Shown: positions 1,388-29,892 of the stretch, piece by piece
Numbering within the stretch: position 1 is the first letter of the stretch
Layout of the letters: the number at the start of each line of letters is the position of its first letter
DNA from: a virus
DNA length: 38,886 nt
Direction: 5' to 3' (one strand)
Virus genome (UHGV): UHGV-0147235
Position numbers and translations under genes: made by a program
Notes under the pieces: model-generated
Seen by the model: the letters and a program-made list of their open reading frames with translations, nothing else
The model's database searches: none
What the model was told of the DNA's origin: nothing

Positions 1388-2077
1388 TTATTTATAAGTA
1401 TTATTAAAACTTTCAGCATATTTCGCTGGATTATCATAGATTTCATTTTTATACTTTTCAATATTATTGATAGCATCTTCATTCCATCTACTCGAAGCTA
1501 CACGGGTACCATTAATTTTTATTCCAATATTAGCTGATTTAACGTCAGTATTTGCTTTGTTGATACCAATGAGCGTTTGAGCTATAGCTTGATTTATAGT
1601 CTTTTTAGTCATATTTTTAGTTAAGTTATGGTCAATTGATATTAAAATATTAGTATTAGTACCAAACTGACCTAATTCTTGGACTTTTCCTAGATGTAAT
1701 TCATTTTCAACTGAATTTCTTAGTTGATTAGTTTGATTTTCGCTATTATCAATAATTACATCCTTAGTTTTTATCGAATTTTTTTCATTGTTAATTTTAG
1801 GATCTTCATTTGTATTTGAAGCGGGGATTTCAATTTTATTACTATCTTTAGTTTCCTGTTGGTGATTTGATGTATCGGATTCTTCATTTGAATCAATATT
1901 TGGTAGTATTAAGGTGATAACGAAAAATATTGTGAATATTAAAGATATGATTACTTTTGTCGACTTTTTAAAGAAAGTATATCGCCATATTAAAAATACT
2001 CCTAATGGAAAGAAAAATGTTAAGGACAAAAATATAAACCAATTTTTTTTATAAAATGGTGTTTTTTCTAGCTGCAT
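1388..2077 (-). CDS. Membrane-anchored cargo protein: 2 N-terminal TM helices, N/S/E-rich linker, C-terminal globular domain. Possible superinfection-exclusion or lysogenic-conversion protein
   Basis: Hydrophobic segments FIFLSLTFFFPLGVFLIW and VIISLIFTIFFVITLIL, then a low-complexity linker. Lies between int and the cI-like gene on the int strand. Confidence 0.5.
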   Translation of the reverse strand: MQLEKTPFYKKNWFIFLSLTFFFPLGVFLIWRYTFFKKSTKVIISLIFTIFFVITLILPNIDSNEESDTSNHQQETKDSNKIEIPASNTNEDPKINNEKNSIKTKDVIIDNSENQTNQLRNSVENELHLGKVQELGQFGTNTNILISIDHNLTKNMTKKTINQAIAQTLIGINKANTDVKSANIGIKINGTRVASSRWNEDAINNIEKYKNEIYDNPAKYAESFNNTYK

Positions 2078-2104: not shown

Positions 2105-2464
2105 CTAATTGTCGTTTAACAATATTTTAAGAAATGCGAGATTGGGATATTTATAGTTGTAAAAATAAATAGTTTGAAGAATTTGATAGGTAGGTAATTC
2201 AAAAAAATTGCTTAGTTTTTGGAGGGTATTGCAATTATAAATCTCTATAGCTTTTTGAATTTTCATAAGAGGAACTAAATAACTTATGTTTTGATTTAAA
2301 TTTTTAAGAATAGAATACGATTTCCTAAAATCAGTATTCGAAGACAATTTAGTATTTATATATAAATTTTTATCTACTATCAAACACTCTAACTTTTCAG
2401 GCATCTCTTTATACTCAATATTAATGCCCTCAATCAACTCCTTGAATTGATGCATAATTTTCAC
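2105..2464 (-). CDS. Hypothetical protein in the lysogeny module
   Basis: 119-aa ORF on the int/cI strand. No motif recognised. Confidence 0.45.
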   Translation of the reverse strand: MKIMHQFKELIEGINIEYKEMPEKLECLIVDKNLYINTKLSSNTDFRKSYSILKNLNQNISYLVPLMKIQKAIEIYNCNTLQKLSNFFELPTYQILQTIYFYNYKYPNLAFLKILLNDN

Positions 2465-5756: not shown

Positions 5757-6305
5757 ATGAACGAAGAATGGAGAGATGTTGTAGGTTACGAAGGTATTTA
5801 CGAAGTCAGTAACAAAGGTAGAGTAAGAACTCATAAATATAAAACTACTTATACAAAGAAACACGGTGTTAGACATTGGAGGCAACGTTATTTAAAAGAT
5901 AAAACACCTAATGGAAGAAATGTAAGAGTGGCACTTTGGAAAGATGGGAAACCAAACTATTACTTAGTCCATAGGTTAGTTGCAAAAGCATTTATACCAG
6001 TTGTGAAAGACAAGAACTGTATCAATCATATAGACGGAAATCCTAAAAATAATAATGTAGAAAATTTTGAATGGTGCAATCACTTAGAAAATAATATACA
6101 CGCTTTAGAAACAGGATTAACAACTACTAATATGGCTGTAAAACTAATTAATCACTTAGATATTGAATACGAGTTTATCAGCATGAGTAGAGCAAGTGAA
6201 TTCTTAGGCAGGAATAAAGGCTATGTAAGTAGCCGGTTAAAAAATAATTGTTCAAAGTTAACCGATGTAAATGGCAATAATTACAAAGTAGAGAAGTTGA
6301 TATAG
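5757..6305 (+). CDS. HNH homing endonuclease (NUMOD4 + HNH_3 motifs)
   Basis: WRDVVGYEGIYEVSNKGRVR is NUMOD4-like. HRLVAKAFIP...INHIDGNPKNNNVENFEWCNHLEN is HNH_3-like. Confidence 0.7.
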   Translation: MNEEWRDVVGYEGIYEVSNKGRVRTHKYKTTYTKKHGVRHWRQRYLKDKTPNGRNVRVALWKDGKPNYYLVHRLVAKAFIPVVKDKNCINHIDGNPKNNNVENFEWCNHLENNIHALETGLTTTNMAVKLINHLDIEYEFISMSRASEFLGRNKGYVSSRLKNNCSKLTDVNGNNYKVEKLI

Positions 6306-6986
6306 ATGCCTAAAATAAGAAATTACATTACTCAAGATGACGGTACAACTACTGTCATTATTGAGAATGTAGAAATAGATAATAAAACATCATTATTGCT
6401 TGATAATGATTTAGAAGTAGAATGTGAAGTTAAACTAGTTGATCCATTCCTAATCACTGATAAGCAGCGTCGAAAAGTTTTTGCGCTTTGTAATGATATA
6501 GAGAGTTATACAGGCCAACCTAGAGAATATATGAGAGAAATGTTTCAAGACTACGTAACTTTCTTATACGGGTATGATAAACATATTTCTTTAAGCAATT
6601 GTTCAAGAGAGCAAGCTAGACAAGTTATAGAAGTGATACTGGACTGGGTGTTTCATAATAATATCCCACTTAACTACAAAACAAGTGACTTACTCAAAAA
6701 CGATAAATCTTTTCTGTACTGGGCAACGGTTAATCGTAACTGTGTAATTTGTGGTAAGCGTGGAGAGTTAGCACACTATGAAGCGGTTGGTAGAGGCATG
6801 AATAGAAATAAAATAGAACATTATGGTAAGCGTGTATTAGCGCTATGTAGAGAACATCATCAAGAACAACATTCAAGTGGTATTAAAACGTTTAATAATA
6901 AATACCACTTGAATGATAGTTGGATAGCGGTAGATGAAAGGCTGAATAAAATGTTGAAAGGTCAAAAGGTGAATTTTATCTATTAG
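6306..6986 (+). CDS. DUF968-like phage protein with a C-terminal Cys/His HNH-like zinc motif
   Basis: C-terminal CVICGKRGELAHYEAVGRG...ALCREHHQEQH. Confidence 0.45.
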   Translation: MPKIRNYITQDDGTTTVIIENVEIDNKTSLLLDNDLEVECEVKLVDPFLITDKQRRKVFALCNDIESYTGQPREYMREMFQDYVTFLYGYDKHISLSNCSREQARQVIEVILDWVFHNNIPLNYKTSDLLKNDKSFLYWATVNRNCVICGKRGELAHYEAVGRGMNRNKIEHYGKRVLALCREHHQEQHSSGIKTFNNKYHLNDSWIAVDERLNKMLKGQKVNFIY

Positions 6987-7764
6987 ATTTATTATAGGAA
7001 ACTATAAAAATTATGACGTAGAAACACATAGCTCTATATTCATGTGGGATAAAGGGGAGCAAGACGTTAGCTAGGAAAGTAATATAATGATTAGTTAATT
7101 CATCAATTTCTTCGCCAATGTGACTTAACAACCATCCTTTAAACATTGAATCTATAGCATTTTGTAGTTTACCATTTTCAGATGTATTTATCACGTCATC
7201 TCTAATTTCTCCAAACTCTTTAAAAGTATTGAATGAATTTGTAATTACTGGCTCCCACTTTATTTGTCTAATCGAATTATTATAAAAAAGTGTATTTTTA
7301 ACATATTCATATCTTAAAATTTTAAACGAGTTATCGATTAAATCTGAATTAATATTCATATCTATTGATCGTTTTATTCGTTCAAGTACCGAATTAGAAA
7401 ACAAACTACTTTTGAATTGATTTTGATAGTTTTCAATCATCTTATTTATTTGTATTAATTGCTTAGCGTTAATCCTAGAAGCTACTTTAGCAGGATTGGA
7501 ATAAAAGGCATTTTCAAATGGAAAGTTCTTTGGAAGTGCATTATTAATTGTTTTTAAGTCGTTCATCAATGTTGGATTACTATTATAAAAATTTAATAAA
7601 GGTTTAATTTGAGGCATAAGTGAATCAATAGTTACAATAGTACGTTTGTAACTGGGAGAATTAGTAACTTCTAAAGCTTTTTTAACTGTAGAAGATAAAT
7701 GAACATTGTGAGCATTAATATTATTTATTTGTTTTTGAATTAAATACGAATAATTTTTATACAT
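6976..7764 (-). CDS. Hypothetical cargo protein on the opposite strand inside the replication module
   Basis: 262-aa ORF in 70% AT DNA is very unlikely by chance. AGGCGGTG lies 6 nt upstream of ATG 7764. Overlaps the DUF968-like gene convergently by 11 nt. No domain recognised. Confidence 0.6.
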   Translation of the reverse strand: MYKNYSYLIQKQINNINAHNVHLSSTVKKALEVTNSPSYKRTIVTIDSLMPQIKPLLNFYNSNPTLMNDLKTINNALPKNFPFENAFYSNPAKVASRINAKQLIQINKMIENYQNQFKSSLFSNSVLERIKRSIDMNINSDLIDNSFKILRYEYVKNTLFYNNSIRQIKWEPVITNSFNTFKEFGEIRDDVINTSENGKLQNAIDSMFKGWLLSHIGEEIDELTNHYITFLANVLLPFIPHEYRAMCFYVIIFIVSYNKSNR

Positions 7765-7827
7765 TAAATGCACCGCCTATATATATTTAAAAGCTTACTT
7801 AAATTATATCAGAAAGGAGAAATTAAA

Positions 7828-8583
7828 TTGTCTAATCAATTAATAGATGATTATCCTATTTTAGTCTTGCCAAAGCTTGCAGAGAAAATTGGATTAAATG
7901 AAGCAATTATATTACAACAAATTCATTATTGGTTAAAAGAAAGTAAACATTTCTATGATAATAAAATTTGGGTTTATAATTCATATCCTAACTGGGTTAA
8001 ACAATTTCCGTTTTGGAGTGAACGTACTATTCGAAGAACTTTCGGAAGCTTAGAAAAGAAAAATCTAGTTTATGTAGGTAACTATAATAAAGCAGGTTTT
8101 GATAGAACGAAATGGTATTCAATAAATTATAGTAATTTAGAAAAACTAGTGGCCACATCATCAGGACAAAATGGCCCGACGATAGTGACAAAATGGCCTG
8201 ATGCAAAAGGACAAAGTGGCCCTACCAATACCAGGGACTACACAGAGACTTCGTCAGAGACTACTCATAATAGCGCAACTGATGTTACGCAAGTTCAATT
8301 TAACCAATGGTGGAATTTATATGATAAGAAACTAGATAAGAAGAAAGCATTCAGCTTATTTAAATCAGCGCTTAAAAAGCATAAGTTCGAAACTATAATG
8401 AATGGAACTCAAGCATATCTTAAAACAATTACTAATAAGCAATATCAGAAATATCCTAAAACATTTTTATCGCAAGAAAGTTTTCTAAATGATTATTCTG
8501 AAAAAATTGATAAAAACACAAATCAATATACTGAAGCATTTGAAAGAGCTGCACAATCTGATATGGAAAATCTACCGTTTTAA
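7828..8583 (+). CDS. DnaD-like replisome organizer / replication initiation protein
   Basis: TTG start with AAAGGAG 8 nt upstream. N-terminus LSNQLIDDYPILVLPKLAEKIGLNEAIILQQIHYWL...FPFWSERTIRRTFGSLEKKNLV is typical of the family. Confidence 0.75.
   Translation: MSNQLIDDYPILVLPKLAEKIGLNEAIILQQIHYWLKESKHFYDNKIWVYNSYPNWVKQFPFWSERTIRRTFGSLEKKNLVYVGNYNKAGFDRTKWYSINYSNLEKLVATSSGQNGPTIVTKWPDAKGQSGPTNTRDYTETSSETTHNSATDVTQVQFNQWWNLYDKKLDKKKAFSLFKSALKKHKFETIMNGTQAYLKTITNKQYQKYPKTFLSQESFLNDYSEKIDKNTNQYTEAFERAAQSDMENLPF
8164..8222 (+). repeat. Iterons (candidate phage replication origin) inside the DnaD-like gene
   Basis: Three direct repeats: GACAAAATGGCC at 8165-8176 and 8187-8198, GACAAAGTGGCC at 8210-8221. 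Spacing is 22-23 bp. Confidence 0.5.
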
Positions 8584-8595
8584 AGGAGTGATATC

Positions 8596-9402
8596 ATGCA
8601 AGCATTTAAAAATATAGCTAAACCACCTAAATTTAAAAGTAAGGTTATTAAAAAAGAAAAAGGTTTGAAGTGTGAAAAGTGTAGTCGTAACTATGACTAC
8701 TACGAGTTTGAAAAACAAGATGGATCAATACAAAAAGTCAAATTTGGTTGTGATTGTGAGATGAAAGAGTTTGCTAGACAATCAACTGAGAACTATCACA
8801 AGAAACAAAAACGTATAAAAGCTAAGAAGATATTTAAACAATCTATTATCAATCAGTCACTAGCAAATGCTACATTTGATAATTATGAGATAGATGATAA
8901 TACTCAACCACAATTAGCTAAAGCAAAACGCATATGTAAAAAATACGCTGATAGCTTCAACTTAGACAATAAGCAATCATTACTCATCCAAGGTTCATTT
9001 GGAACAGGGAAATCACACTTATCTATGAGTATCGTTAAAGAAATTAAAGCAAAAGGTTTTACTGTTCTCTATATGAATGTACCACATCTTATTTCAACAA
9101 TTAAAAATACATATAACAACGATACTAATATGACTGAACAAGAATTAGCAAAAATCATTAGTGATGTAGATTTGATGGTGTTTGACGACTACGGAATTAA
9201 TATGAATGATTTTGCTACCAGCAAGATGTTTGAATTGATAGAAAGTCGTATTGGTAAACACAATATATTCACTACTAACTTAGATGAAAAAGAAATGACT
9301 AGAAGTAAAGATTTGCAACGTATATTTAGCAGAATCATGAGCAATACAACGCTAATCAAAATGGATGGTCAAGATTATAGAACTAAGGGGCTGAGATTTT
9401 GA
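8596..9402 (+). CDS. DnaC/IstB-like AAA+ helicase loader with N-terminal zinc ribbon
   Basis: Walker A GSFGTGKSHLSMSI, Walker B LMVFDDYG, N-terminal CEKCSRN...CDCE. Confidence 0.8.
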   Translation: MQAFKNIAKPPKFKSKVIKKEKGLKCEKCSRNYDYYEFEKQDGSIQKVKFGCDCEMKEFARQSTENYHKKQKRIKAKKIFKQSIINQSLANATFDNYEIDDNTQPQLAKAKRICKKYADSFNLDNKQSLLIQGSFGTGKSHLSMSIVKEIKAKGFTVLYMNVPHLISTIKNTYNNDTNMTEQELAKIISDVDLMVFDDYGINMNDFATSKMFELIESRIGKHNIFTTNLDEKEMTRSKDLQRIFSRIMSNTTLIKMDGQDYRTKGLRF

Positions 9403-9563
9403 TGACAAAAGACAATATTAAGCTAATACTTGACTGTTCAGATGTTTATGCTCAGAAATTAATTAGATGGTCAAATTGCAATGAAAAGGCATTAGTCAAC
9501 CTAATTAATCAGAAATTAGAAGAACGTCGAAAAAGAGAGGCTATGGTTGAATATGGGGCTTAA
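9402..9563 (+). CDS. Small ORF (53 aa) translationally coupled to the DnaC-like gene
   Basis: ATGA overlap with the upstream stop codon. Not in the ORF track (<60 aa). Confidence 0.3.
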   Translation: MTKDNIKLILDCSDVYAQKLIRWSNCNEKALVNLINQKLEERRKREAMVEYGA

Positions 9564-9795
9564 AGAAAATCAACCTAATGCTTATGATTTATTTGAAAGT
9601 GATGGTTGGCCTTTGTTGAGAGTGCTACCTAGAGATGATGGCTCTTTCTACTTAACCAACTTAGGTGGTATGGCTGAAAAGCACTTTAAACAGTTTGTAA
9701 CAAAAGATGAACTAGCAGAGATGAAACGAAAACATAAATTATTTAAGCAGAAAGAGTTACAACATCAAACAACCATAGATGAATTTCTGTTGTAG
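9547..9795 (+). CDS. Hypothetical protein
   Basis: 82-aa ORF. AGAGAGG lies 7 nt upstream of TTG 9547. Confidence 0.45.
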   Translation: MNMGLKENQPNAYDLFESDGWPLLRVLPRDDGSFYLTNLGGMAEKHFKQFVTKDELAEMKRKHKLFKQKELQHQTTIDEFLL

Positions 9796-9798
9796 GAA

Positions 9799-10212
9799 GT
9801 GAACAACTTGAGAATAGAGATTAAATTTAATGAAAATTTTAAAGCACCTATTGGATCACCTAGGCCACGATTTAGAAACGCTGGAAGATTTGTACAAACC
9901 TATATGCCAACTTCCTATATGAATCATAAAGATTATATTAGAAAACAAATGCCTAAATTATTACTTACTAGCAGTTTAAAAGTATCGTTATTTTTCTACT
10001 TTATCCCTCCAAAAAGTTGGAGTAAAAATCAAAAATTACTAGCGATAGGCCAGTATAAAAGGACAAAGCCTGATATAGATAATTTAATAAAAACTGTACT
10101 GGATGCAGCGAACAATAGATTGTGGAAAGACGATAATCAAATTGTAGAAATTTATAGTTTTAAACAATACGCAGAACGACCAAAAATCATCTTAGAATTG
10201 GAGGAATTATAA
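9799..10212 (+). CDS. rusA: RusA-family Holliday junction resolvase
   Basis: PIGSPRPRFR...KPDIDNLIKTVLDAAN...WKDDNQIVEI. The true start may be TTG 9808 (AGGAAGTG 6 nt upstream). Confidence 0.8.
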   Translation: MNNLRIEIKFNENFKAPIGSPRPRFRNAGRFVQTYMPTSYMNHKDYIRKQMPKLLLTSSLKVSLFFYFIPPKSWSKNQKLLAIGQYKRTKPDIDNLIKTVLDAANNRLWKDDNQIVEIYSFKQYAERPKIILELEEL

Positions 10213-10398
10213 ATGACAAGAGAAAAAATAAAGTCGATACCTAGAGTGTATTTGAATGGTAAAAGTTACCGATTATGTGATGTATATAAATATTTTCCAG
10301 TATCAGATACGGCGGTAAGACGACGATATAAAAAAGGATTACGTGGTTCAGAATTAATTTATGGTAAGGGAGTCTATAAGTATGACACAAACCTATGA
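10213..10398 (+). CDS. Hypothetical small protein
   Basis: 61-aa ORF starting one nt after the rusA stop. Confidence 0.4.
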   Translation: MTREKIKSIPRVYLNGKSYRLCDVYKYFPVSDTAVRRRYKKGLRGSELIYGKGVYKYDTNL

Positions 10399-10606
10399 AC
10401 GTAATGAAGGTAGATTATCTGATGAAGAATATATGCAACTCATAAGAATAAGAGCAGCAAATGAAAGAGCGTTAAGGAACGAACGTAGGCAACAAAGAAT
10501 AAATCATCGTATTAGATGTGAACAGTTACTTAAAGAACATAGAGTCAGTAGCAAGTGGTTTAGGTATCTAGTAGAGAATGATATTTTCCCGAAAGTTAGA
10601 AGGTAA
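10382..10606 (+). CDS. Hypothetical small basic protein
   Basis: AAGGGAG lies 9 nt upstream of ATG 10382. Arg-rich. Confidence 0.45.
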   Translation: MTQTYERNEGRLSDEEYMQLIRIRAANERALRNERRQQRINHRIRCEQLLKEHRVSSKWFRYLVENDIFPKVRR

Positions 10607-11058
10607 TGAAAATGCAGAATATTAGAATAATTGATTTAAATACAAATGACATTGTCAAATTTCAACTCACTACAAAAGAGTACAAAACATCACATACTGG
10701 AATAGTCAAACGTGTATATGCAAAGAATGAAGGTATGCAAACAAAGTGGTATACAGATGTAGAAAATGCTAATGGTAAAAAGTTTACCATTAATGATAAT
10801 TACGACTTTATGAAAGTGAATGAACCTTTTATTCGTAAAGTTGACATGGTAGACCAGCCATCACACTATCAATTCGATAAGTTTAACGCACATGCCATTA
10901 TTGAAGCGGTTGGAAAAACTTATAAATCCGCTTCAGTTTTTTATCACGTAGGCAATGCACTTAAATACTTAATGCGATCACCTAGAAAAAATGGTTTAGA
11001 AGATTTAAAGAAAGCGAAACAAAGTATTGAGTTTGCTATCAAAAGTTGGGAGGAGTAA
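10606..11058 (+). CDS. DUF3310-domain protein
   Basis: C-terminal PSHYQF...IIEAVGKTY...GNALKYLMRSPRKNGLEDLKKAKQSIEFAI matches the DUF3310 signature as I remember it. Confidence 0.5.
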   Translation: MKMQNIRIIDLNTNDIVKFQLTTKEYKTSHTGIVKRVYAKNEGMQTKWYTDVENANGKKFTINDNYDFMKVNEPFIRKVDMVDQPSHYQFDKFNAHAIIEAVGKTYKSASVFYHVGNALKYLMRSPRKNGLEDLKKAKQSIEFAIKSWEE

Positions 11059-12517: not shown

Positions 12518-13006
12518 TTATATATTAGCTTTATTTTTATGTTTTTCAATTAAGTCTGCTATGGAAAGTAAGAAACCATCTTCAGTTTCAATATGAGAAG
12601 AAATTATTCCACGAGATGTTCTTAATTCTAAGTTATTTCCTTGATAGAAATAAAAATTATGTTCTAATTCAAAATAACAATAAAAGCGAGTTGCTCCATA
12701 ACTTTCAATACGAATAGGTATTTGATGAGTCTTAAGCTTAGGTCCATGTTTAGTAGAAAGAATTATTCTTTCATCTGTACTGCATATATTTTTATTGATA
12801 GAAATACCTGTAATAGAAATAGGCTCTGAAGAATTATTGATGATTTCAAAATGCGCATAAAAGTCACCGCCTGGAATGAAAAAACAGTTTGTTATTTGAT
12901 AATTAAGACTAAATTTTTGTCTTTCCCAAGTACGTAAAACATTATAAGCACTTACGAATAATGATAATAAAGCTATAAATAAAGAACCAATACTAATGAA
13001 TAACAA
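12518..13006 (-). CDS. Single-pass membrane protein with a beta-rich C-terminal domain, on the opposite strand
   Basis: N-terminal TM helix LFISIGSLFIALLSLFVSAY. 162-aa ORF in AT-rich DNA. Tail-to-tail with the MazG gene with a 2-nt gap. Confidence 0.55.
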   Translation of the reverse strand: MLFISIGSLFIALLSLFVSAYNVLRTWERQKFSLNYQITNCFFIPGGDFYAHFEIINNSSEPISITGISINKNICSTDERIILSTKHGPKLKTHQIPIRIESYGATRFYCYFELEHNFYFYQGNNLELRTSRGIISSHIETEDGFLLSIADLIEKHKNKANI

Positions 13007-26900: not shown

Positions 26901-29892
26901 AGAATTAAATAGAAAAATAAAAGAAATTGAAGATAAAAAAAATAATGGTGGTAAGTTATCAGATAAAGAGATTAGAGAATTACAATCATTGTATAAGCAA
27001 AGAGAAGAAATAGCAGTTAAAGCATTAACAAATGGTGAAAAAGAACAAAAACGTGTTTTAGCTCGAATATCAATTAATCGTAAAGCTGCATCAATCGCAG
27101 AAGCTTCTGAAATTGTCAAAGAGGCGAATAAAGCACGTGATGATGCGAAAAAAGATGCAAAGAAACGCTATGATGATAAAATTGACGAAATTAATTCAAT
27201 GATTGGATTATCTCAAAAAGAAAGAGAAAAATTATTAGATGAAGCCAAAAAGAAATACGATAAGGATAAAAAATTAGCAGATGAAAATCATGAAAGTGTC
27301 ATGAGAAATCTGAAAAAATCTAATAAAAATATTGAAGCGGAAATCGATTTATCAAATGGTAAAGTTTATAATGGTTTTCAAAAATGGTGGCATAATATTA
27401 AAGAAGGCCATTTTAGTTTATCAAAGCATATAAAAAAATCTTGGTATAATCTTGTACAGGGTATTTTTGGTGCAATTGATAGTTTGAAAGGAATAGGTAA
27501 TAAGATAGGGCAACCATTTTCTAAAGCTAAAGACTTTATTGTAAGTTCATCTAAAGACATATATCATGGTGTGACACATTGGTTTGAAAATACTAAAAAT
27601 AGCATTGGAAATAAAATCAGTGATATGAAAGAACATGCTAGTAAAAAATGGGGAGCAATTTCTAATGATGCATCTCATAATGCTCATTTGATTTATAGTG
27701 GCACTTCAAAATGGATGAATAAAGCATTTAGTAGTATGAATGGTTGGCTAAGTGACATGAAAAACAGTGCATTAAAAAAATGGGATGCGATATCTAGTGT
27801 AGCATGGTCAAATGCAAAAAGTGTATGGCGTGGTACTTCAAAGTGGTTTGGTGATGCATATAGTAGCTTAAAAAGTTGGGTAGGCGACATGTATGAATCG
27901 GCCTTTGATAAATTTGATAGTATCTCAAGTACAGCATGGTCAAATGCAAAATCCGTATATAACGGTTTTAAAACTTGGTTAAGTAATACACTAGATTGGA
28001 TTAAAGAAATCGGTGGAGAAATGGCAGATGCTGCAGCTGATTTAGGTAAATCTGTTGCAAATAAAGCAATCGGTGGACTTAATAGTATGATTGGCGGTAT
28101 CAATAGCATTTCTAAAGCTATTACTGATAAAGACTTAATTAAACCTATACCAACACTTTCAACTGGTACAATGGCTAGTGCGTCTGTTTCAACTGATTCG
28201 AATGGTGGCTTAACTGCACCAACTTTAGCAATTGTTAATGATCGTGGCGTGGGTAATGCTCCAGGTGGGGGTGTACAAGAGATTATACACAGAGCAAATG
28301 GAACACTTGAAGCGCCACAAGGGAGAAATGTGCTTGTTTCTCTAGGTGTTGGGGATAGCGTCATTAATGCGAATGATACACAACGTTATCAACGTATGGG
28401 AGTAATACCGAGTTTTTCAACTGGTACTAAGAAAAAAGACTGGTTAGAAAATATGATGTCTTCAATCGGTAAATTCGGTAGCAAAGCTAAAGATACATTC
28501 CATAATATCAAAACTGGTGCAAAAGATATGATAAAAGCAGCAGGCGATAAAATTAAATATGGGGCATCATGGCTAAGTGAAAAAGTTGGAGATGTTTGGG
28601 ACTATATTGAAAATCCAGGGAAGTTAGTATCTAAAGTTATGGATAGCTTAGGTATTAGTTTTGGCGAAGGTAACCATGCCACTATCAAAATGGCTAAAGG
28701 TGCATTCAATATTCTCAAAACTAAATTAATAGATAAAGTTAAATCTTGGTTTGAAGAGTTCGGTGGTGGCGACGGTTCATATTTATTCAATTATCCAATT
28801 TGGCAACGTTTCGGTAGTTATACTGGTGGCTTAGGATTTAATGGTGGCCGTCACTATGGTATGGACTTTGGTATGCCAGCTGGTACAAAAGTTTACGCAG
28901 TTAAAGGCGGTACAGTAGATAATGTATGGTATGACTATGGTGGCGGTAATTCAATTCAAATTAAAACAGGGCCAGGCGAGTGGAATTGGTATATGCATTT
29001 ATCTAAACAACTTGTACGTTTAGGTGAACATATTAGAACTGGACAATTGATTGCAGAATCGGGGGCAACTGGTGCATTTTGTAAAGGTGCTCACTTACAC
29101 TTCCAATTAATGCGCGGAGACCATCCTGGAAACGATACAGCAATTGATCCAGAGTCATATCTTAAATCATTGAAAGGTGCTGCAGGTGGTAATGGTGCCG
29201 ATGTTGCGAGAAGTGCCATTTTAAAAGCGCAAGCTATTTTAGGTGGGAACTATAGAAGTAGTTATATAACTGAGCAAATGATGCGAGTAGCTAAACGAGA
29301 ATCAAATTATACATCTAATGCAGTCAATGATTGGGATATGAATGCGCAAATGGGAGATCCATCAAAAGGTATGTTCCAAATGATAGGCTCGACATTTAGA
29401 ACTTATGCTAAGAGTGGATTTGGTAATATTATGAATCCAGTTGATGAAGCTATATCTGCAATGAGATATATTGTTGATAAATATGGTTGGAATGGATTTA
29501 AGCGTGCAGGAGATTATGCATATGAAAATGGTGGTTTAATTACTAAACATCAAATTGCAGAAATCGGAGAAGGCAACAAACCGGAAATGATTATCCCACT
29601 TACAAAACGCAGTCGTGCTATTAAATTAATAGAAGATGCAATGCGCATTGTTGGTATGGATACAAGTTCTAGTAATGTCACAGTAAATCAAGATAATTCA
29701 ACAGTTGAAAAATTATTAAATCATATTGCGATATTAACTGATACTGGTAATAAATTAACAAGAATGTTAATAGAAACGGTTAAATCTAATCAACAAAATA
29801 ACAGCTTAGACAATGTTGAACAAACATTATCAAAAATAAGTGCAACACGTGCATTAGCACTTAATTACATGGAAGGGGGACTTGATATTTAA
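23944..29892 (+). CDS. Tape measure protein (1982 aa) with C-terminal M23 peptidase and SLT lytic transglycosylase domains
   Basis: Long coiled-coil N-terminus and Gly-rich TM segments. M23 motifs GRHYGMDFG...HLHFQL. SLT motif RESNYTSNAVNDWD...MFQMIGSTF. Confidence 0.9.
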   Translation: MDEKLQGLTLEMSLDAIGVQEGMKGLKRQLGVVNSEMKANLSAFDNSEKSMEKYEATLKGLNEKLKVQNQMFVQSKNDLSRLNADYQNAVSRVKDVERAYEKLVETNKKNKLAYDQSTNAMKESNAELKKSEAQFARTVKRKDEAWQKLKQLRQAEKDLKESNEATTAQLNRANNAIQKQVEKHKELVAKYKEEESQVKKLRQENRELLSSHEKVTKNYQTSNKELKETGEEFKQLNTTIKNHNKLLASAERNVNNELSALNKLERQVNKTKSEMNDFNREQVIANSSFTKVAEHADKLSNKFGAISDKMKSTGKTMSVGITAPVVAGFGAAIKTSADFEAQMSKVGAIAQVSSSDLKAMTNEAVDLGAKTSKSASEVAKGMQELASLGFDAKQTMEAMPGVISASEASGAELATTAQVMASSINAFGLKASDATHVADLLATAANDSAADINYMGDALKYAGTPAKALGVTLEDTSAAIEVMSNSGLDGSQAGTALRASFIKLASPSKEASTLMQQLGVHLMDAKGHFVGMPQLISQFQNGLKGMSKEQKLAAISTVVGSEAASGFLSLIDAGQSKIDKYSNALKNSDGASKKASDQMKNNLKGSVEQLKGAFESLGIKIGNDLAPAIRKGADWLSNFVDKFSSMPGFARKGVIALGLFAGAIGPIILAGGILAGVISKAVKGYRDLNKTMAINSAEAAINAKAIDVASNSIGKTGKVAKNSKGHMSELGDAVGNLSTGFGGLGKKVPGVGGKFGKFGSLLGGLISRFGSLGNVSKLAIGAIGKLTLPLTIITTVFTIAYQKLGWFKQGIHDLGRLWNETAGSLDFSWIGKFTKGIGTAWDKTKEFSAKLLELTPMFKMLKVSFDGIHKGVAKATDKVDVFGKGVSKETKSALGSFVNYSEKSSKILDKMRINHGEITQKESQELTNLNKKMSDDLIDQMNKRKDKELKIAHDVLDKSTAISEEDKKRLLKKTEERNEIAIKKTQELNRKIKEIEDKKNNGGKLSDKEIRELQSLYKQREEIAVKALTNGEKEQKRVLARISINRKAASIAEASEIVKEANKARDDAKKDAKKRYDDKIDEINSMIGLSQKEREKLLDEAKKKYDKDKKLADENHESVMRNLKKSNKNIEAEIDLSNGKVYNGFQKWWHNIKEGHFSLSKHIKKSWYNLVQGIFGAIDSLKGIGNKIGQPFSKAKDFIVSSSKDIYHGVTHWFENTKNSIGNKISDMKEHASKKWGAISNDASHNAHLIYSGTSKWMNKAFSSMNGWLSDMKNSALKKWDAISSVAWSNAKSVWRGTSKWFGDAYSSLKSWVGDMYESAFDKFDSISSTAWSNAKSVYNGFKTWLSNTLDWIKEIGGEMADAAADLGKSVANKAIGGLNSMIGGINSISKAITDKDLIKPIPTLSTGTMASASVSTDSNGGLTAPTLAIVNDRGVGNAPGGGVQEIIHRANGTLEAPQGRNVLVSLGVGDSVINANDTQRYQRMGVIPSFSTGTKKKDWLENMMSSIGKFGSKAKDTFHNIKTGAKDMIKAAGDKIKYGASWLSEKVGDVWDYIENPGKLVSKVMDSLGISFGEGNHATIKMAKGAFNILKTKLIDKVKSWFEEFGGGDGSYLFNYPIWQRFGSYTGGLGFNGGRHYGMDFGMPAGTKVYAVKGGTVDNVWYDYGGGNSIQIKTGPGEWNWYMHLSKQLVRLGEHIRTGQLIAESGATGAFCKGAHLHFQLMRGDHPGNDTAIDPESYLKSLKGAAGGNGADVARSAILKAQAILGGNYRSSYITEQMMRVAKRESNYTSNAVNDWDMNAQMGDPSKGMFQMIGSTFRTYAKSGFGNIMNPVDEAISAMRYIVDKYGWNGFKRAGDYAYENGGLITKHQIAEIGEGNKPEMIIPLTKRSRAIKLIEDAMRIVGMDTSSSNVTVNQDNSTVEKLLNHIAILTDTGNKLTRMLIETVKSNQQNNSLDNVEQTLSKISATRALALNYMEGGLDI

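What the first reader, a model, noticed from the sequence alone, without database searches (positions are those of the whole stretch)
6976..7827. Opposite-strand 262-aa gene embedded in the replication module, with a divergent promoter region
A long minus-strand ORF sits between the DUF968-like and DnaD-like genes. It overlaps the upstream gene convergently by 11 nt. It has a good SD (AGGCGGTG) before ATG 7764, and a 60-bp divergent intergenic region is shared with the DnaD-like gene. No domain was recognised, though the protein ends in a hydrophobic segment. A counter-oriented gene inside an early operon is a typical moron signature, and it could be expressed from the prophage.
Basis: partly seen in the sequence, partly recalled or inferred. 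Interest (0 to 1): 0.55.

Follow-up and report, generated by a model that had tools for sequence, protein, structure and literature searches.

The report
Counter-oriented prophage accessory gene (moron)
A real 262-aa gene of unknown function, with its own conserved promoter, sits backwards inside the replication genes of a Staphylococcus prophage in the slot where well-studied relatives carry the abortive-infection gene Abi-alpha, so it is probably expressed in lysogens and is a candidate new phage-defence protein.

Summary
Window 6976-7764 (-) is a genuine 262-aa gene: ATG at 7764, SD AGGCGGTG, an 11-nt convergent overlap with the HNHc_6/DUF968 gene, and a 63-bp divergent spacer to the DnaD-like gene. 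It has no Pfam, NCBIfam, PADLOC, PDB or fold match and belongs only to phrog_19142. The family is tiny and almost entirely staphylococcal (11 clusters among 1.84 billion representatives).

It always lies against the early lytic operon, behind a conserved cassette: neighbour's SD, a -10 box (TGnTATAAT in nearly all loci), about 27 nt, GGnGGTG, then the start codon. In phage 80alpha/phiNM1 the same slot and cassette carry the unrelated Abi_alpha gene. That gene is transcribed in lysogens and is the most abundant prophage protein there. The phiETA homologue (ORF21) shares a 100%-identical promoter/5'UTR with 80alpha gp19, and homology breaks only around the ORF. The cassette drives at least 10 different cargo families at two slots.

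So this is a single-gene moron in a cargo-swapping slot. The protein has a variable basic N-terminal region, a conserved helical core and a conserved C-terminal hydrophobic helix. I infer a membrane-anchored, lysogen-expressed anti-phage (Abi/Sie-like) function, which is untested. It is a new member of a known kind, of moderate interest.

The parts
6976..7764 (-). CDS of 262 aa (phrog_19142 family), the counter-oriented cargo gene
   Evidence: ORF. Full-length match to phrog_19142, E 8.4e-29. Homologues at 99/93/69/35% identity in S. hominis, epidermidis, haemolyticus and auricularis, and 34% in S. aureus phiETA ORF21. dN/dS 0.37.
7771..7778 (-). Shine-Dalgarno AGGCGGTG, 6 nt before ATG 7764
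   Evidence: Read from the sequence. The GGnGGTG position is conserved in all aligned loci.
7803..7811 (-). Extended -10 promoter element TGATATAAT for the cargo gene, directly abutting the neighbour's SD
   Evidence: The -10 box is conserved in every aligned upstream region despite different neighbours and cargo; the TG is present in all but L015. phiJB annotators placed a putative promoter P1L at the equivalent position.
7765..7827 (.). 63-bp divergent intergenic cassette: neighbour SD, -10, about 27-nt 5'UTR, SD
   Evidence: The spacer is 63-65 bp at this position in every slot-A locus and in L015 (74 nt in S. saprophyticus L142).
7249..7416 (-). Conserved central core (residues 117-172: F..LFS...K...ID..F..LRYEYVKNTL...SI..I.WEP)
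   Evidence: Invariant columns. It is the best-conserved block (0.44 pairwise column identity) and the only part with AF2 pLDDT around 75.
6994..7038 (-). C-terminal hydrophobic helix (residues 243-257, YRAMCFYVIIFIVSY), preceded by invariant P237, P240 and R244 and followed by 5 polar residues
   Evidence: Kyte-Doolittle 15-mer score is 1.63 here and 1.8-2.7 in homologues; the 19-mer score is 1.31 here and up to 2.2 in homologues. Invariant residues.
6976..6986 (.). 11-nt convergent overlap of the cargo stop with the HNHc_6/DUF968 gene stop; no terminator hairpin here
   Evidence: Folding of the downstream 100 nt gives z -1.1 on the minus strand and -0.9 on the plus strand.
6306..6986 (+). 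Flanking early gene, HNHc_6/DUF968 (right border of slot A)
   Evidence: PF16784, E 5e-71.
7828..8583 (+). Flanking replication-initiator gene (DnaD-like, TTG start), the divergent neighbour
   Evidence: phrog_6493, E 1.4e-60. The start agrees with homologues in L003 and L009.

Best explanation
The gene is a self-contained, single-gene moron. It occupies a cargo-swapping slot that staphylococcal temperate siphoviruses keep inside their rightward early (recombination/replication) operon. It reads leftward, in the same direction as int and cI, from its own constitutive-type extended -10 promoter, which abuts the ribosome-binding site of the divergent replication-initiator gene. In the lysogen the early operon is repressed, so the gene is expressed. 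After induction, rightward early transcription has to run antisense through it and should turn it down. This is the 'noncontiguous operon' logic shown for phage 80alpha. The product is a basic, all-helical cytoplasmic protein, probably held at the membrane by a short C-terminal hydrophobic helix. It has a poorly conserved N-terminal third and a conserved core and tail. I infer that it protects the lysogen against other phages as a single-protein abortive-infection or exclusion factor. On this reading the variable N-terminus senses the invader and the conserved core and membrane tail act as effector. Shown here: gene reality, promoter-cassette conservation, the ORF-precise swap with Abi_alpha, two slots, and absence of any known domain. 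Inferred: expression in this lysogen, membrane location, and the anti-phage role.
For: 1. Same slot, same cassette. 80alpha gp19 and phiNM1 gp17 (Pfam Abi_alpha, E 9e-45; PADLOC PDC-S47) lie counter-oriented between DUF968 and the replication initiator, with a 64-bp spacer.
2. phiETA ORF21 is the S. aureus member of this family. Its upstream region is identical to that of 80alpha gp19 through the SD, and homology (94%) breaks within a few nt of the start codon. It resumes 19 nt after the ORF21 stop and 43 nt after the gp19 stop, at 90%.
3. An IMG/VR scan for the cassette gave 120 loci (truncated) with at least 10 unrelated cargo families: Abi_alpha 54, a 93-aa family 40, this family 4, and others. 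The replication initiator was the neighbour in 109 loci and a DUF771 gene in 6.
4. Family members always lie against the early operon. Slot A is HNHc_6 or SSB | X | initiator. Slot B is cro | X | DUF771.
5. In phiETA, 80alpha and L015 the same strong hairpin with a U-run follows the cargo (z -3.8 to -4.4), so the unit is promoter, gene, terminator.
6. The analogue is expressed in lysogeny. 80alpha orf19 antisense transcripts switch on induction (PMC11087260). The phiNM1 DUF4393 protein is 42% of prophage protein in the lysogen. Abi-alpha is an experimentally shown Abi (PMC6356687).
7. The protein is under purifying but relaxed selection: dN/dS 0.37, against 0.07-0.26 for neighbours. The N-terminus and linker are variable, and the core and C-terminal hydrophobic helix are conserved. 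Many truncated alleles exist in databases.
8. GC is 0.25-0.27, against 0.30-0.34 in the flanks.
Against: There is no expression, localisation or phenotype data for any member of this family. The defence role rests on guilt by position, since the other cargo families in the slot apart from Abi_alpha are also uncharacterised. The window copy has no terminator and overlaps HNHc_6, so it is a less clean moron than the S. aureus copies. Its C-terminal segment is short, and its 19-residue hydropathy (1.31) is below the usual 1.6 transmembrane threshold, although homologues reach 1.9-2.2. The AF2 models are poor (pLDDT 44 and 57), so no fold evidence exists. The 80alpha figure legend names the gene inconsistently (orf17 and orf19).
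Confidence: 0.5

Rival explanations
1. Lysogenic-conversion or host-physiology factor. The gene is a lysogen-expressed moron as described, but the membrane-associated protein changes host physiology (envelope, stress tolerance, competence, colonisation) rather than blocking phages.
For: The architecture evidence is the same. No hit to any PADLOC defence model. The ORF is retained intact in a defective S. epidermidis prophage with a split integrase next to glnA.
Against: Only 5-9 residues would be outside the membrane, so there is little to interact with the environment. The one characterised cargo of the slot is an Abi. In S. saprophyticus the gene sits in prophages whose other leftward cargo is R-M or SMC/AAA_15 plus a methyltransferase, a defence-type context.
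Confidence: 0.2
2. The transcription unit, not the protein, is the point. The conserved leftward promoter fires against the early operon to damp read-through into, or out of, the replication-initiator gene in lysogens (transcriptional interference or antisense RNA). The ORF is interchangeable filler.
For: The promoter/5'UTR cassette is far better conserved than the cargo: it is identical between phiETA and 80alpha while the cargo genes are unrelated, and about 85% identical between phiETA and L015 while the proteins are about 30% identical. In the window the transcript must run antisense into HNHc_6, because there is no terminator. Rostol et al. showed a minor contribution of antisense transcription itself in the ith/tha unit.
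Against: The protein is under purifying selection with invariant motifs across seven named species. The S. aureus copies carry a terminator right after the cargo, which limits antisense reach. The two roles are not mutually exclusive.
Confidence: 0.15
3. Lytic-cycle replication accessory protein, for example a membrane tether organising phage DNA replication in the manner of phi29 p16.7, placed next to the initiator for that reason.
For: Its location is beside the DnaD-like/DnaC-like genes. It has a basic N-terminal region (pI about 10) and a hydrophobic tail.
Against: It is oriented against the replication genes. Phages with 94%-identical replication modules carry an unrelated gene instead. 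In other phages the family sits next to cro/DUF771, beside quite different replication modules: primase-polymerase/helicase, or RecT/DnaB_2. There is no match to any replication family in Pfam or PHROGs.
Confidence: 0.07
4. Not a gene: a chance antisense ORF.
For: AT-rich phage genomes can carry long antisense ORFs, for example the 223-aa ORF inside the tape-measure gene.
Against: It is conserved from 99% down to about 27% identity in many Staphylococcus species, with invariant motifs, a conserved SD and start, dN/dS 0.37 and a PHROG family.
Confidence: 0.01

Closest known systems
80alpha gp19 / phiNM1 gp17 (A0EWI8), Abi_alpha (PF14337, formerly DUF4393); E. faecalis prophage-6 Abi-alpha
   Same: Same slot (DUF968/HNHc_6 | X | replication initiator), same counter-orientation and the same 63-64-bp promoter/SD cassette, which is identical for the phiETA family member. 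Similar size (285 vs 262 aa), single gene, no partner gene. The S. aureus analogue is lysogen-expressed.
   Different: No sequence relationship: no Pfam hit, and hhalign probability 0.2%. The Abi-alpha paper contains no mention of 'transmembrane', whereas this family has a conserved C-terminal hydrophobic helix. No phenotype is known for this family.
phiETA ORF21 (NP_510915) / phrog_19142
   Same: True homologue: 34% identity over the full length, with the same slot and orientation. The window protein matches phrog_19142 end to end.
   Different: Annotated only as 'hypothetical, unknown'. The phiETA copy has a terminator and a 77-nt gap to the next gene, whereas the window copy overlaps HNHc_6.
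Antisense genes of staphylococcal phage 'noncontiguous operons' (ith-1, orf11, orf19 of 80alpha; Rostol et al. 2024, PMC11087260)
   Same: [quoted passage not shown]
   Different: ith-1 is an anti-defence (immunity) gene nested in the lysogeny operon and rises on induction. This gene is nested in the lytic operon and should fall on induction. Overlapping transcripts have not been demonstrated here.
PdpSau (S. aureus phage 53) and lactococcal AbiP: membrane-anchored single-protein Abi
   Same: Prophage-encoded single protein of about 270 aa with one hydrophobic anchor and a basic cytoplasmic domain. This is the functional model I propose (PMC10127798).
   Different: PdpSau has an N-terminal TM and an OB-like domain and sits by the lysis module. 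No similarity was detected: tblastn against the phage collection, which includes phage 53, hit only phiETA-type genes.
207/210-aa cargo family (phrog_7948 / phrog_4768) found behind the same cassette
   Same: Same slot and cassette, an MY.DP N-terminus, an F.N.LFS..L..F motif and a C-terminal hydrophobic helix followed by a charged tail. Family member P0010 cross-hits both PHROGs (E 1.7e-7 and 6.5e-5). hhalign probability is 65%.
   Different: Lacks the LRYEYVKN/WEP core. The relationship is probable but not established, and the family is likewise uncharacterised.

Membership tests
phrog_19142 (uncharacterised phage protein family) | Full-length profile match | tested here: met
   E 8.4e-29, residues 1-260 on profile positions 1-248 of 251. 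Distant members P0010 and P0012 also match.
Abi_alpha (PF14337 / PADLOC PDC-S47) | Sequence or profile homology to the Abi_alpha domain | tested here: not met
   No Pfam or PADLOC hit. hhalign of the family profile against 80alpha gp19 gave probability 0.2%.
Abi_alpha (PF14337 / PADLOC PDC-S47) | Abortive-infection phenotype | not testable with these tools
   Needs phage challenge assays.
Moron (Hendrix/Juhala sense: autonomous extra gene in a prophage) | Own promoter upstream | tested here: met
   TGATATAAT at 7811-7803. The -10 box is conserved in every related locus regardless of neighbour or cargo, with the TG present in all but L015. This is a sequence-level test only.
Moron (Hendrix/Juhala sense: autonomous extra gene in a prophage) | Own terminator downstream | tested here: not met
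   The window and the S. haemolyticus copy have no hairpin (z -1.1 and +1.1). The feature is met in phiETA, 80alpha and L015 (z -3.8 to -4.4) and probably in S. auricularis.
Moron (Hendrix/Juhala sense: autonomous extra gene in a prophage) | Present or absent, or replaced, between otherwise near-identical phages | tested here: met
   phiETA and 80alpha flanks are 94% and 90% identical while the cargo genes are unrelated. At least 10 cargo families lie behind the cassette.
Moron (Hendrix/Juhala sense: autonomous extra gene in a prophage) | Expressed from the repressed prophage | not testable with these tools
   Shown only for the positional analogue in 80alpha and phiNM1.
Noncontiguous-operon antisense gene (Saenz-Lahoya 2019; Rostol 2024) | Opposite-strand gene with its own promoter nested between co-oriented operon genes | tested here: met
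   All early genes from 3367 to about 12500 are on the + strand except this one. No rightward terminator precedes it.
Noncontiguous-operon antisense gene (Saenz-Lahoya 2019; Rostol 2024) | Operon transcript overlaps the antisense gene, with reciprocal regulation | not testable with these tools
   Needs strand-specific or long-read RNA-seq with and without induction.
Tail-anchored membrane protein | Single hydrophobic helix within about 10 residues of the C-terminus, and none elsewhere | tested here: inconclusive
   The position is conserved, with the basic R244 before it and a polar tail after it. Kyte-Doolittle 19-mer score is 1.31 in the window protein (below 1.6) and 1.5-2.2 in most homologues. 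No TM predictor was available.
Phage replication accessory proteins (DnaD/DnaB_2, DnaC/IstB, initiators) | Homology to a replication family, or co-inheritance with the replication module | tested here: not met
   No Pfam, PHROG or NCBIfam replication match. The gene is swapped out in phages with the same replication module and is found beside unrelated replication modules.

The most novel reading that the evidence does not exclude
phrog_19142, probably together with the related 207/210-aa phrog_7948/4768 proteins, is a new Staphylococcus-restricted family of C-terminally membrane-anchored, single-protein abortive-infection or exclusion factors. A fast-evolving N-terminal region would act as sensor. 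The gene is delivered by a portable 'promoter, 5'UTR, cargo, terminator' cassette that lets staphylococcal prophages shuffle defence cargo between two fixed counter-oriented slots in their early operon. Self-targeting would be avoided simply by antisense early transcription after induction.
Probability: 0.4. Interest if true: 0.6.

Novelty: new member of a known kind. Interest (0 to 1): 0.45.

Why it matters
Staphylococcal prophages strongly influence which therapeutic and wild phages can infect S. aureus and coagulase-negative staphylococci, and only a handful of their defence genes (Tha, PdpSau, Abi-alpha-like) are known. This work places an uncharacterised family in the same expression slot as the most abundant lysogen-expressed phage protein of phiNM1. 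It also shows that the slot is a cargo-exchange site marked by a short conserved promoter cassette, and in S. aureus by a conserved terminator. That gives a simple sequence handle (CTCCTTTCTGnTATAAT ... GGnGGTG) for harvesting candidate accessory or defence genes from staphylococcal prophages, and a short list of families to test. For the gene itself the pay-off is modest unless a phenotype is found.

Tried and rejected
- Domain searches found nothing. Pfam gave only a noise hit (DASH_Duo1, E 0.69). NCBIfam, PADLOC and a PDB profile search (best E 1.4, flagellin) were negative.
- megablast of the region against 50,697 phage records gave no match.
- Two AF2 models were built, one of the full protein and one of the conserved C-terminal 158 aa with a 12-row alignment. 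They reached pLDDT of only 44 and 57. A Foldseek search of the second model against PDB gave nothing (best E 3.4), so no fold inference is made.
- The profile search of 1.84 billion representatives added only a few staphylococcal clusters and no bridge to a known family.
- The scan of GTDB representative genomes found no relative.
- Homology to Abi_alpha was rejected.
- A sigma-70 -35/-10 consensus scan of 6000-9000 gave no more sites than shuffled sequence and missed the extended -10, so I do not rely on it.
- A -35-like TTGaCA overlapping the neighbour's start codon lies 20 nt from the -10. That is too far, and the match is probably a by-product of the ATG-TCT codons.
- I looked for an empty slot (cassette without cargo) to test the regulatory rival. 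The one apparent case (L053) was a mis-called start in front of another membrane-protein ORF.
- Literature searches for phiETA ORF21 or for this slot as a defence hotspot found nothing specific.
Full report
**1. Checking the observation**

The minus-strand ORF is present as described. It runs 6976..7773 from a GTG, or 6976..7764 from the ATG, which gives 262 aa. Every full-length homologue starts with MY (M1, Y2 and S6 are invariant). The GTG lies inside the Shine-Dalgarno sequence, so ATG 7764 is the start.

The SD AGGCGGTG occupies 7778->7771, 6 nt upstream of the ATG. The stop overlaps the 3' end of the upstream + strand gene by 11 nt. That gene (6306..6986) is HNHc_6/DUF968 (PF16784, E 5e-71).

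On the other side, a 63-bp spacer (7765-7827) separates the ORF from the divergent replication-initiator gene. That gene starts at TTG 7828 behind GAAAGGAG and matches the DnaD-like phrog_6493 at E 1.4e-60.

The window is a complete temperate siphovirus prophage of a coagulase-negative Staphylococcus. It carries integrase, cI-like HTH, ERF, SSB, an HNH homing endonuclease, HNHc_6, DnaD-like and DnaC-like genes, RusA and so on. The closest protein is annotated S. hominis.

ORF length alone would not prove a gene, because a 223-aa antisense ORF also lies inside the tape-measure gene. Conservation does prove it:
- Homologues at 99, 93, 69 and 35% identity occur in S. hominis, S. epidermidis, S. 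haemolyticus and S. auricularis.
- Homologues at 34% occur in S. aureus phage phiETA (ORF21) and three ECel-2020 phages.
- More distant members occur in S. saprophyticus/xylosus and S. kloosii, plus one MAG labelled Tetragenococcus.
- dN/dS against the S. epidermidis and S. haemolyticus copies is 0.37. This is purifying selection, but more relaxed than for the neighbours (0.07-0.26).

**2. What the protein looks like**

No Pfam, NCBIfam, PADLOC or PDB-sequence match exists. The only family is phrog_19142, of unknown function, matched end to end at E 8e-29.

The family is tiny: 11 clusters at 50% identity among 1.84 billion representative proteins.

Alignment of 15 members shows four regions:
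- A poorly conserved, often absent, basic N-terminal third (pI about 10).
- A conserved core: F..LFS...K....ID..F..LRYEYVKNTL...SI..I.WEP.
- A variable acidic linker.
- A conserved tail: FLAN.LLPF.P...R, then 13-15 hydrophobic residues, then 5-9 polar residues.

The tail looks like a C-terminal membrane anchor. In the window protein, however, it is short and its 19-residue hydropathy (1.31) is below the usual threshold, although homologues reach 1.9-2.2. I therefore treat membrane anchoring as likely rather than established.

AF2 predicted only helices, with low confidence (pLDDT 44 for the full protein and 57 for the core and tail). Foldseek found nothing.

**3. Context elsewhere**

The gene always lies against the direction of the early lytic operon, in the same direction as int and cI, but its neighbours differ.

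Slot A is next to the replication initiator:
- HNHc_6 | X | DnaD-like initiator in the window, S. haemolyticus and phiETA.
- HNHc_6 | X | HTH_36-type initiator in L016 and L017.
- SSB | X | HTH_36 initiator in S. auricularis.

Slot B is cro | X | DUF771. It is found in phages with entirely different replication modules. L015 has a primase-polymerase and helicase. The very common S. saprophyticus prophages have RecT/DnaB_2.

A profile scan of IMG/VR found 13 loci, 11 in slot A and 2 in slot B.

In S. epidermidis the gene survives intact in a defective prophage whose lysogeny and recombination genes are deleted and whose integrase is split, next to glnA.

**4. The cassette**

The spacer to the divergent neighbour is 63-65 bp in every slot-A locus and in L015 (74 nt in the S. 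saprophyticus slot-B loci), and it has the same layout everywhere. In order it holds:
- The neighbour's start codon.
- The neighbour's SD (CTCCTTTC on this strand).
- Immediately after it, the -10 box (TGnTATAAT in all aligned loci except L015, which has GTGTATAAT).
- About 27 nt of 5'UTR.
- GGnGGTG.
- 6-8 nt, then the start codon.

In the window the -10 is TGATATAAT at 7811->7803.

The annotators of phage phiJB independently placed a putative leftward promoter (P1L) here, and a rightward one (P3R) just inside the cargo gene.

**5. The key comparison**

Phage 80alpha has a counter-oriented gene, gp19, in exactly slot A, between gp18 (DUF968) and gp20 (replication initiator), with a 64-bp spacer. 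gp19 belongs to Abi_alpha (PF14337, E 9e-45; PADLOC PDC-S47). It is unrelated to this family: hhalign probability is 0.2%.

The phiETA ORF21 upstream region is identical to the 80alpha gp19 upstream region through the SD, and differs at 3 positions from phiNM1.

blastn of phiETA against 80alpha shows 94% identity up to within a few nt of the start codon. Nothing aligns across the ORFs. Identity of 90% resumes 19 nt after the ORF21 stop and 43 nt after the gp19 stop. This is an ORF-precise cargo exchange.

The resumed flank begins with a strong hairpin followed by a U-run (z -3.8 and -4.4). The same hairpin follows the family member in slot B of L015. In S. aureus-type phages the unit is therefore promoter, 5'UTR, cargo, terminator, which is the textbook moron, and it is portable between slots.

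The window copy and its S. haemolyticus relative lack the terminator and abut or overlap HNHc_6.

**6. How general is the slot?**

Scanning IMG/VR for CTCCTTTCTGNTATAAT-N22-32-GGNGGTG returned 120 loci, and the scan was truncated. The ORFs directly behind the cassette fall into at least 10 unrelated families:

| Cargo | Loci |
|---|---|
| Abi_alpha | 54 |
| 93-aa family (phrog_1090) | 40 |
| 136/146-aa family | 6 |
| 207/210-aa family (phrog_7948) | 5 |
| this family | 4 |
| 73-aa family | 3 |
| 81-aa family | 2 |
| 72-aa family | 2 |
| DUF2321 | 1 |
| 44-aa ORF | 1 |

The divergent neighbour is the replication initiator in 109 loci and a DUF771 gene in 6.

The 207/210-aa family is probably a distant relative of this one. 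It shares the N-terminus, the LFS motif and a C-terminal hydrophobic helix. Family member P0010 cross-hits its PHROGs, and hhalign probability is 65%.

**7. Expression evidence from the literature, for the analogue only**

- Rostol et al. 2024 describe 'noncontiguous operons' in 80alpha, in which antisense genes with their own promoters are nested in operons. They report a clear switch of transcription around orf11 and orf19 between lysogeny and induction. The legend also writes 'orf17' (PMC11087260).
- A 2025 preprint found that almost all antisense-encoded phiNM1 proteins are present in the lysogen. The DUF4393 protein A0EWI8 is the most abundant, at 42% of prophage protein (10.1101/2025.10.23.684294). 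Its gene is 100% identical to 80alpha gp19.
- Abi-alpha was shown to be an abortive-infection protein in E. faecalis prophage 6 (PMC6356687).

**8. Interpretation**

I conclude with high confidence (about 0.8) that the gene is an autonomous, lysogen-expressed accessory gene in a cargo-swapping slot. The early operon must transcribe through it in antisense after induction.

I conclude with moderate confidence (about 0.4-0.5) that the protein is a membrane-associated anti-phage factor. The reasons are:
- The one characterised occupant of the slot is an Abi.
- The family shows the hallmarks of such genes: narrow host range, fast evolution, a variable N-terminus, frequent truncated alleles and a single-gene module.
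- Single membrane-anchored Abi proteins are known in staphylococcal prophages (PdpSau, PMC10127798).

The rivals are:
- A host-physiology conversion factor (0.2).
- A mainly regulatory, antisense role of the transcription unit (0.15). This is compatible with the main reading and is suggested by the cassette being better conserved than any cargo.
- A replication accessory protein (0.07). This is contradicted by orientation, by cargo exchange and by occurrence beside unrelated replication modules.
- A spurious ORF (0.01).

**9. Novelty and verdict**

The architecture (antisense genes in staphylococcal phage operons, morons) and the Abi_alpha occupant are known. The protein family is uncharacterised. 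To my knowledge from the searches run here, the slot has not been described as a cassette-marked exchange site with many cargo families. I rate this as a new member of a known kind, of moderate interest (0.45).

Noticed in passing
window 12518-13006 (-): A second counter-oriented gene sits inside the rightward operon: 162 aa, TTG start behind AAAGGAG, and a strongly hydrophobic N-terminus (MLFISIGSLFIALLSLFVSAYNVL). It has no Pfam or NCBIfam match. It lies between a MazG-like gene and a DUF1381 gene and is also kept in the defective S. epidermidis prophage (L003 801-1289). It is another candidate lysogen-expressed membrane moron.
   Followed up: partly
IMG/VR loci L021-L140; 80alpha L020 9375-9438; phiETA L001 5937-6000: The short cassette CTCCTTTCTGnTATAAT-N(22-32)-GGnGGTG marks a cargo-exchange site in staphylococcal siphoviruses. 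At least 10 unrelated cargo families lie behind it, most of them uncharacterised: the 93-aa phrog_1090 in 40 of 120 loci, the 136/146-aa phrog_33458, the 207/210-aa phrog_7948, DUF2321, and several ORFs of 44-81 aa.
   Followed up: partly
L001 6770-6830 (+), L020 8420-8480 (-), L015 4815-4865 (+): The same 16-bp-stem terminator hairpin (…CUAAUC…GAUUAGGAGUG… followed by a U-run) follows unrelated cargo in phiETA and 80alpha. It also follows a family member at a different genomic slot (cro|X|DUF771) in L015. The 3' bookend of the cassette is therefore portable too.
   Followed up: partly
window 5757-6305 (+): A free-standing HNH homing-endonuclease gene (NUMOD4 + HNH_3) is inserted between SSB and the HNHc_6 gene. 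It is present in the S. haemolyticus relative (L009) but absent from the equivalent position in 80alpha, phiETA and phiNM1.
   Followed up: no
L003/L004 (S. epidermidis), 6001-9725: This is a defective prophage. The cargo gene and the replication module are retained. Everything from inside HNHc_6 to the integrase is deleted. The integrase is split into two ORFs and lies next to glnA/glnR. The same arrangement recurs in several assemblies.
   Followed up: partly
L142-L145 (S. saprophyticus), 7224-10666: Prophages carrying the slot-B family member also carry alternative defence-type cargo between cI and int. This is either a DNA methylase plus an Eco47II-type restriction enzyme, or an SMC_N/AAA_15 ATPase plus a D12 methyltransferase.
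   Followed up: no
window 1388-2077 (-) and 2105-2464 (-): Two leftward ORFs (229 and 119 aa) lie between the integrase and the cI-like repressor and have no Pfam match. This is the classical lysogeny-module accessory position, where Tha sits in 80alpha.
   Followed up: no
window 27693-28364 (-): A 223-aa antisense ORF lies inside the 1982-aa tape-measure gene. It is probably spurious and is noted only as a caution that ORF length alone is weak evidence here.
   Followed up: no
L019 (MAG labelled Tetragenococcus halophilus), 58-627: This is the only non-Staphylococcus family member. It sits on a 3-kb contig, convergent with ParB_N / DUF6551 / HTH_3 genes. It could reflect mis-binning or a plasmid or phage-plasmid context.
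   Followed up: no
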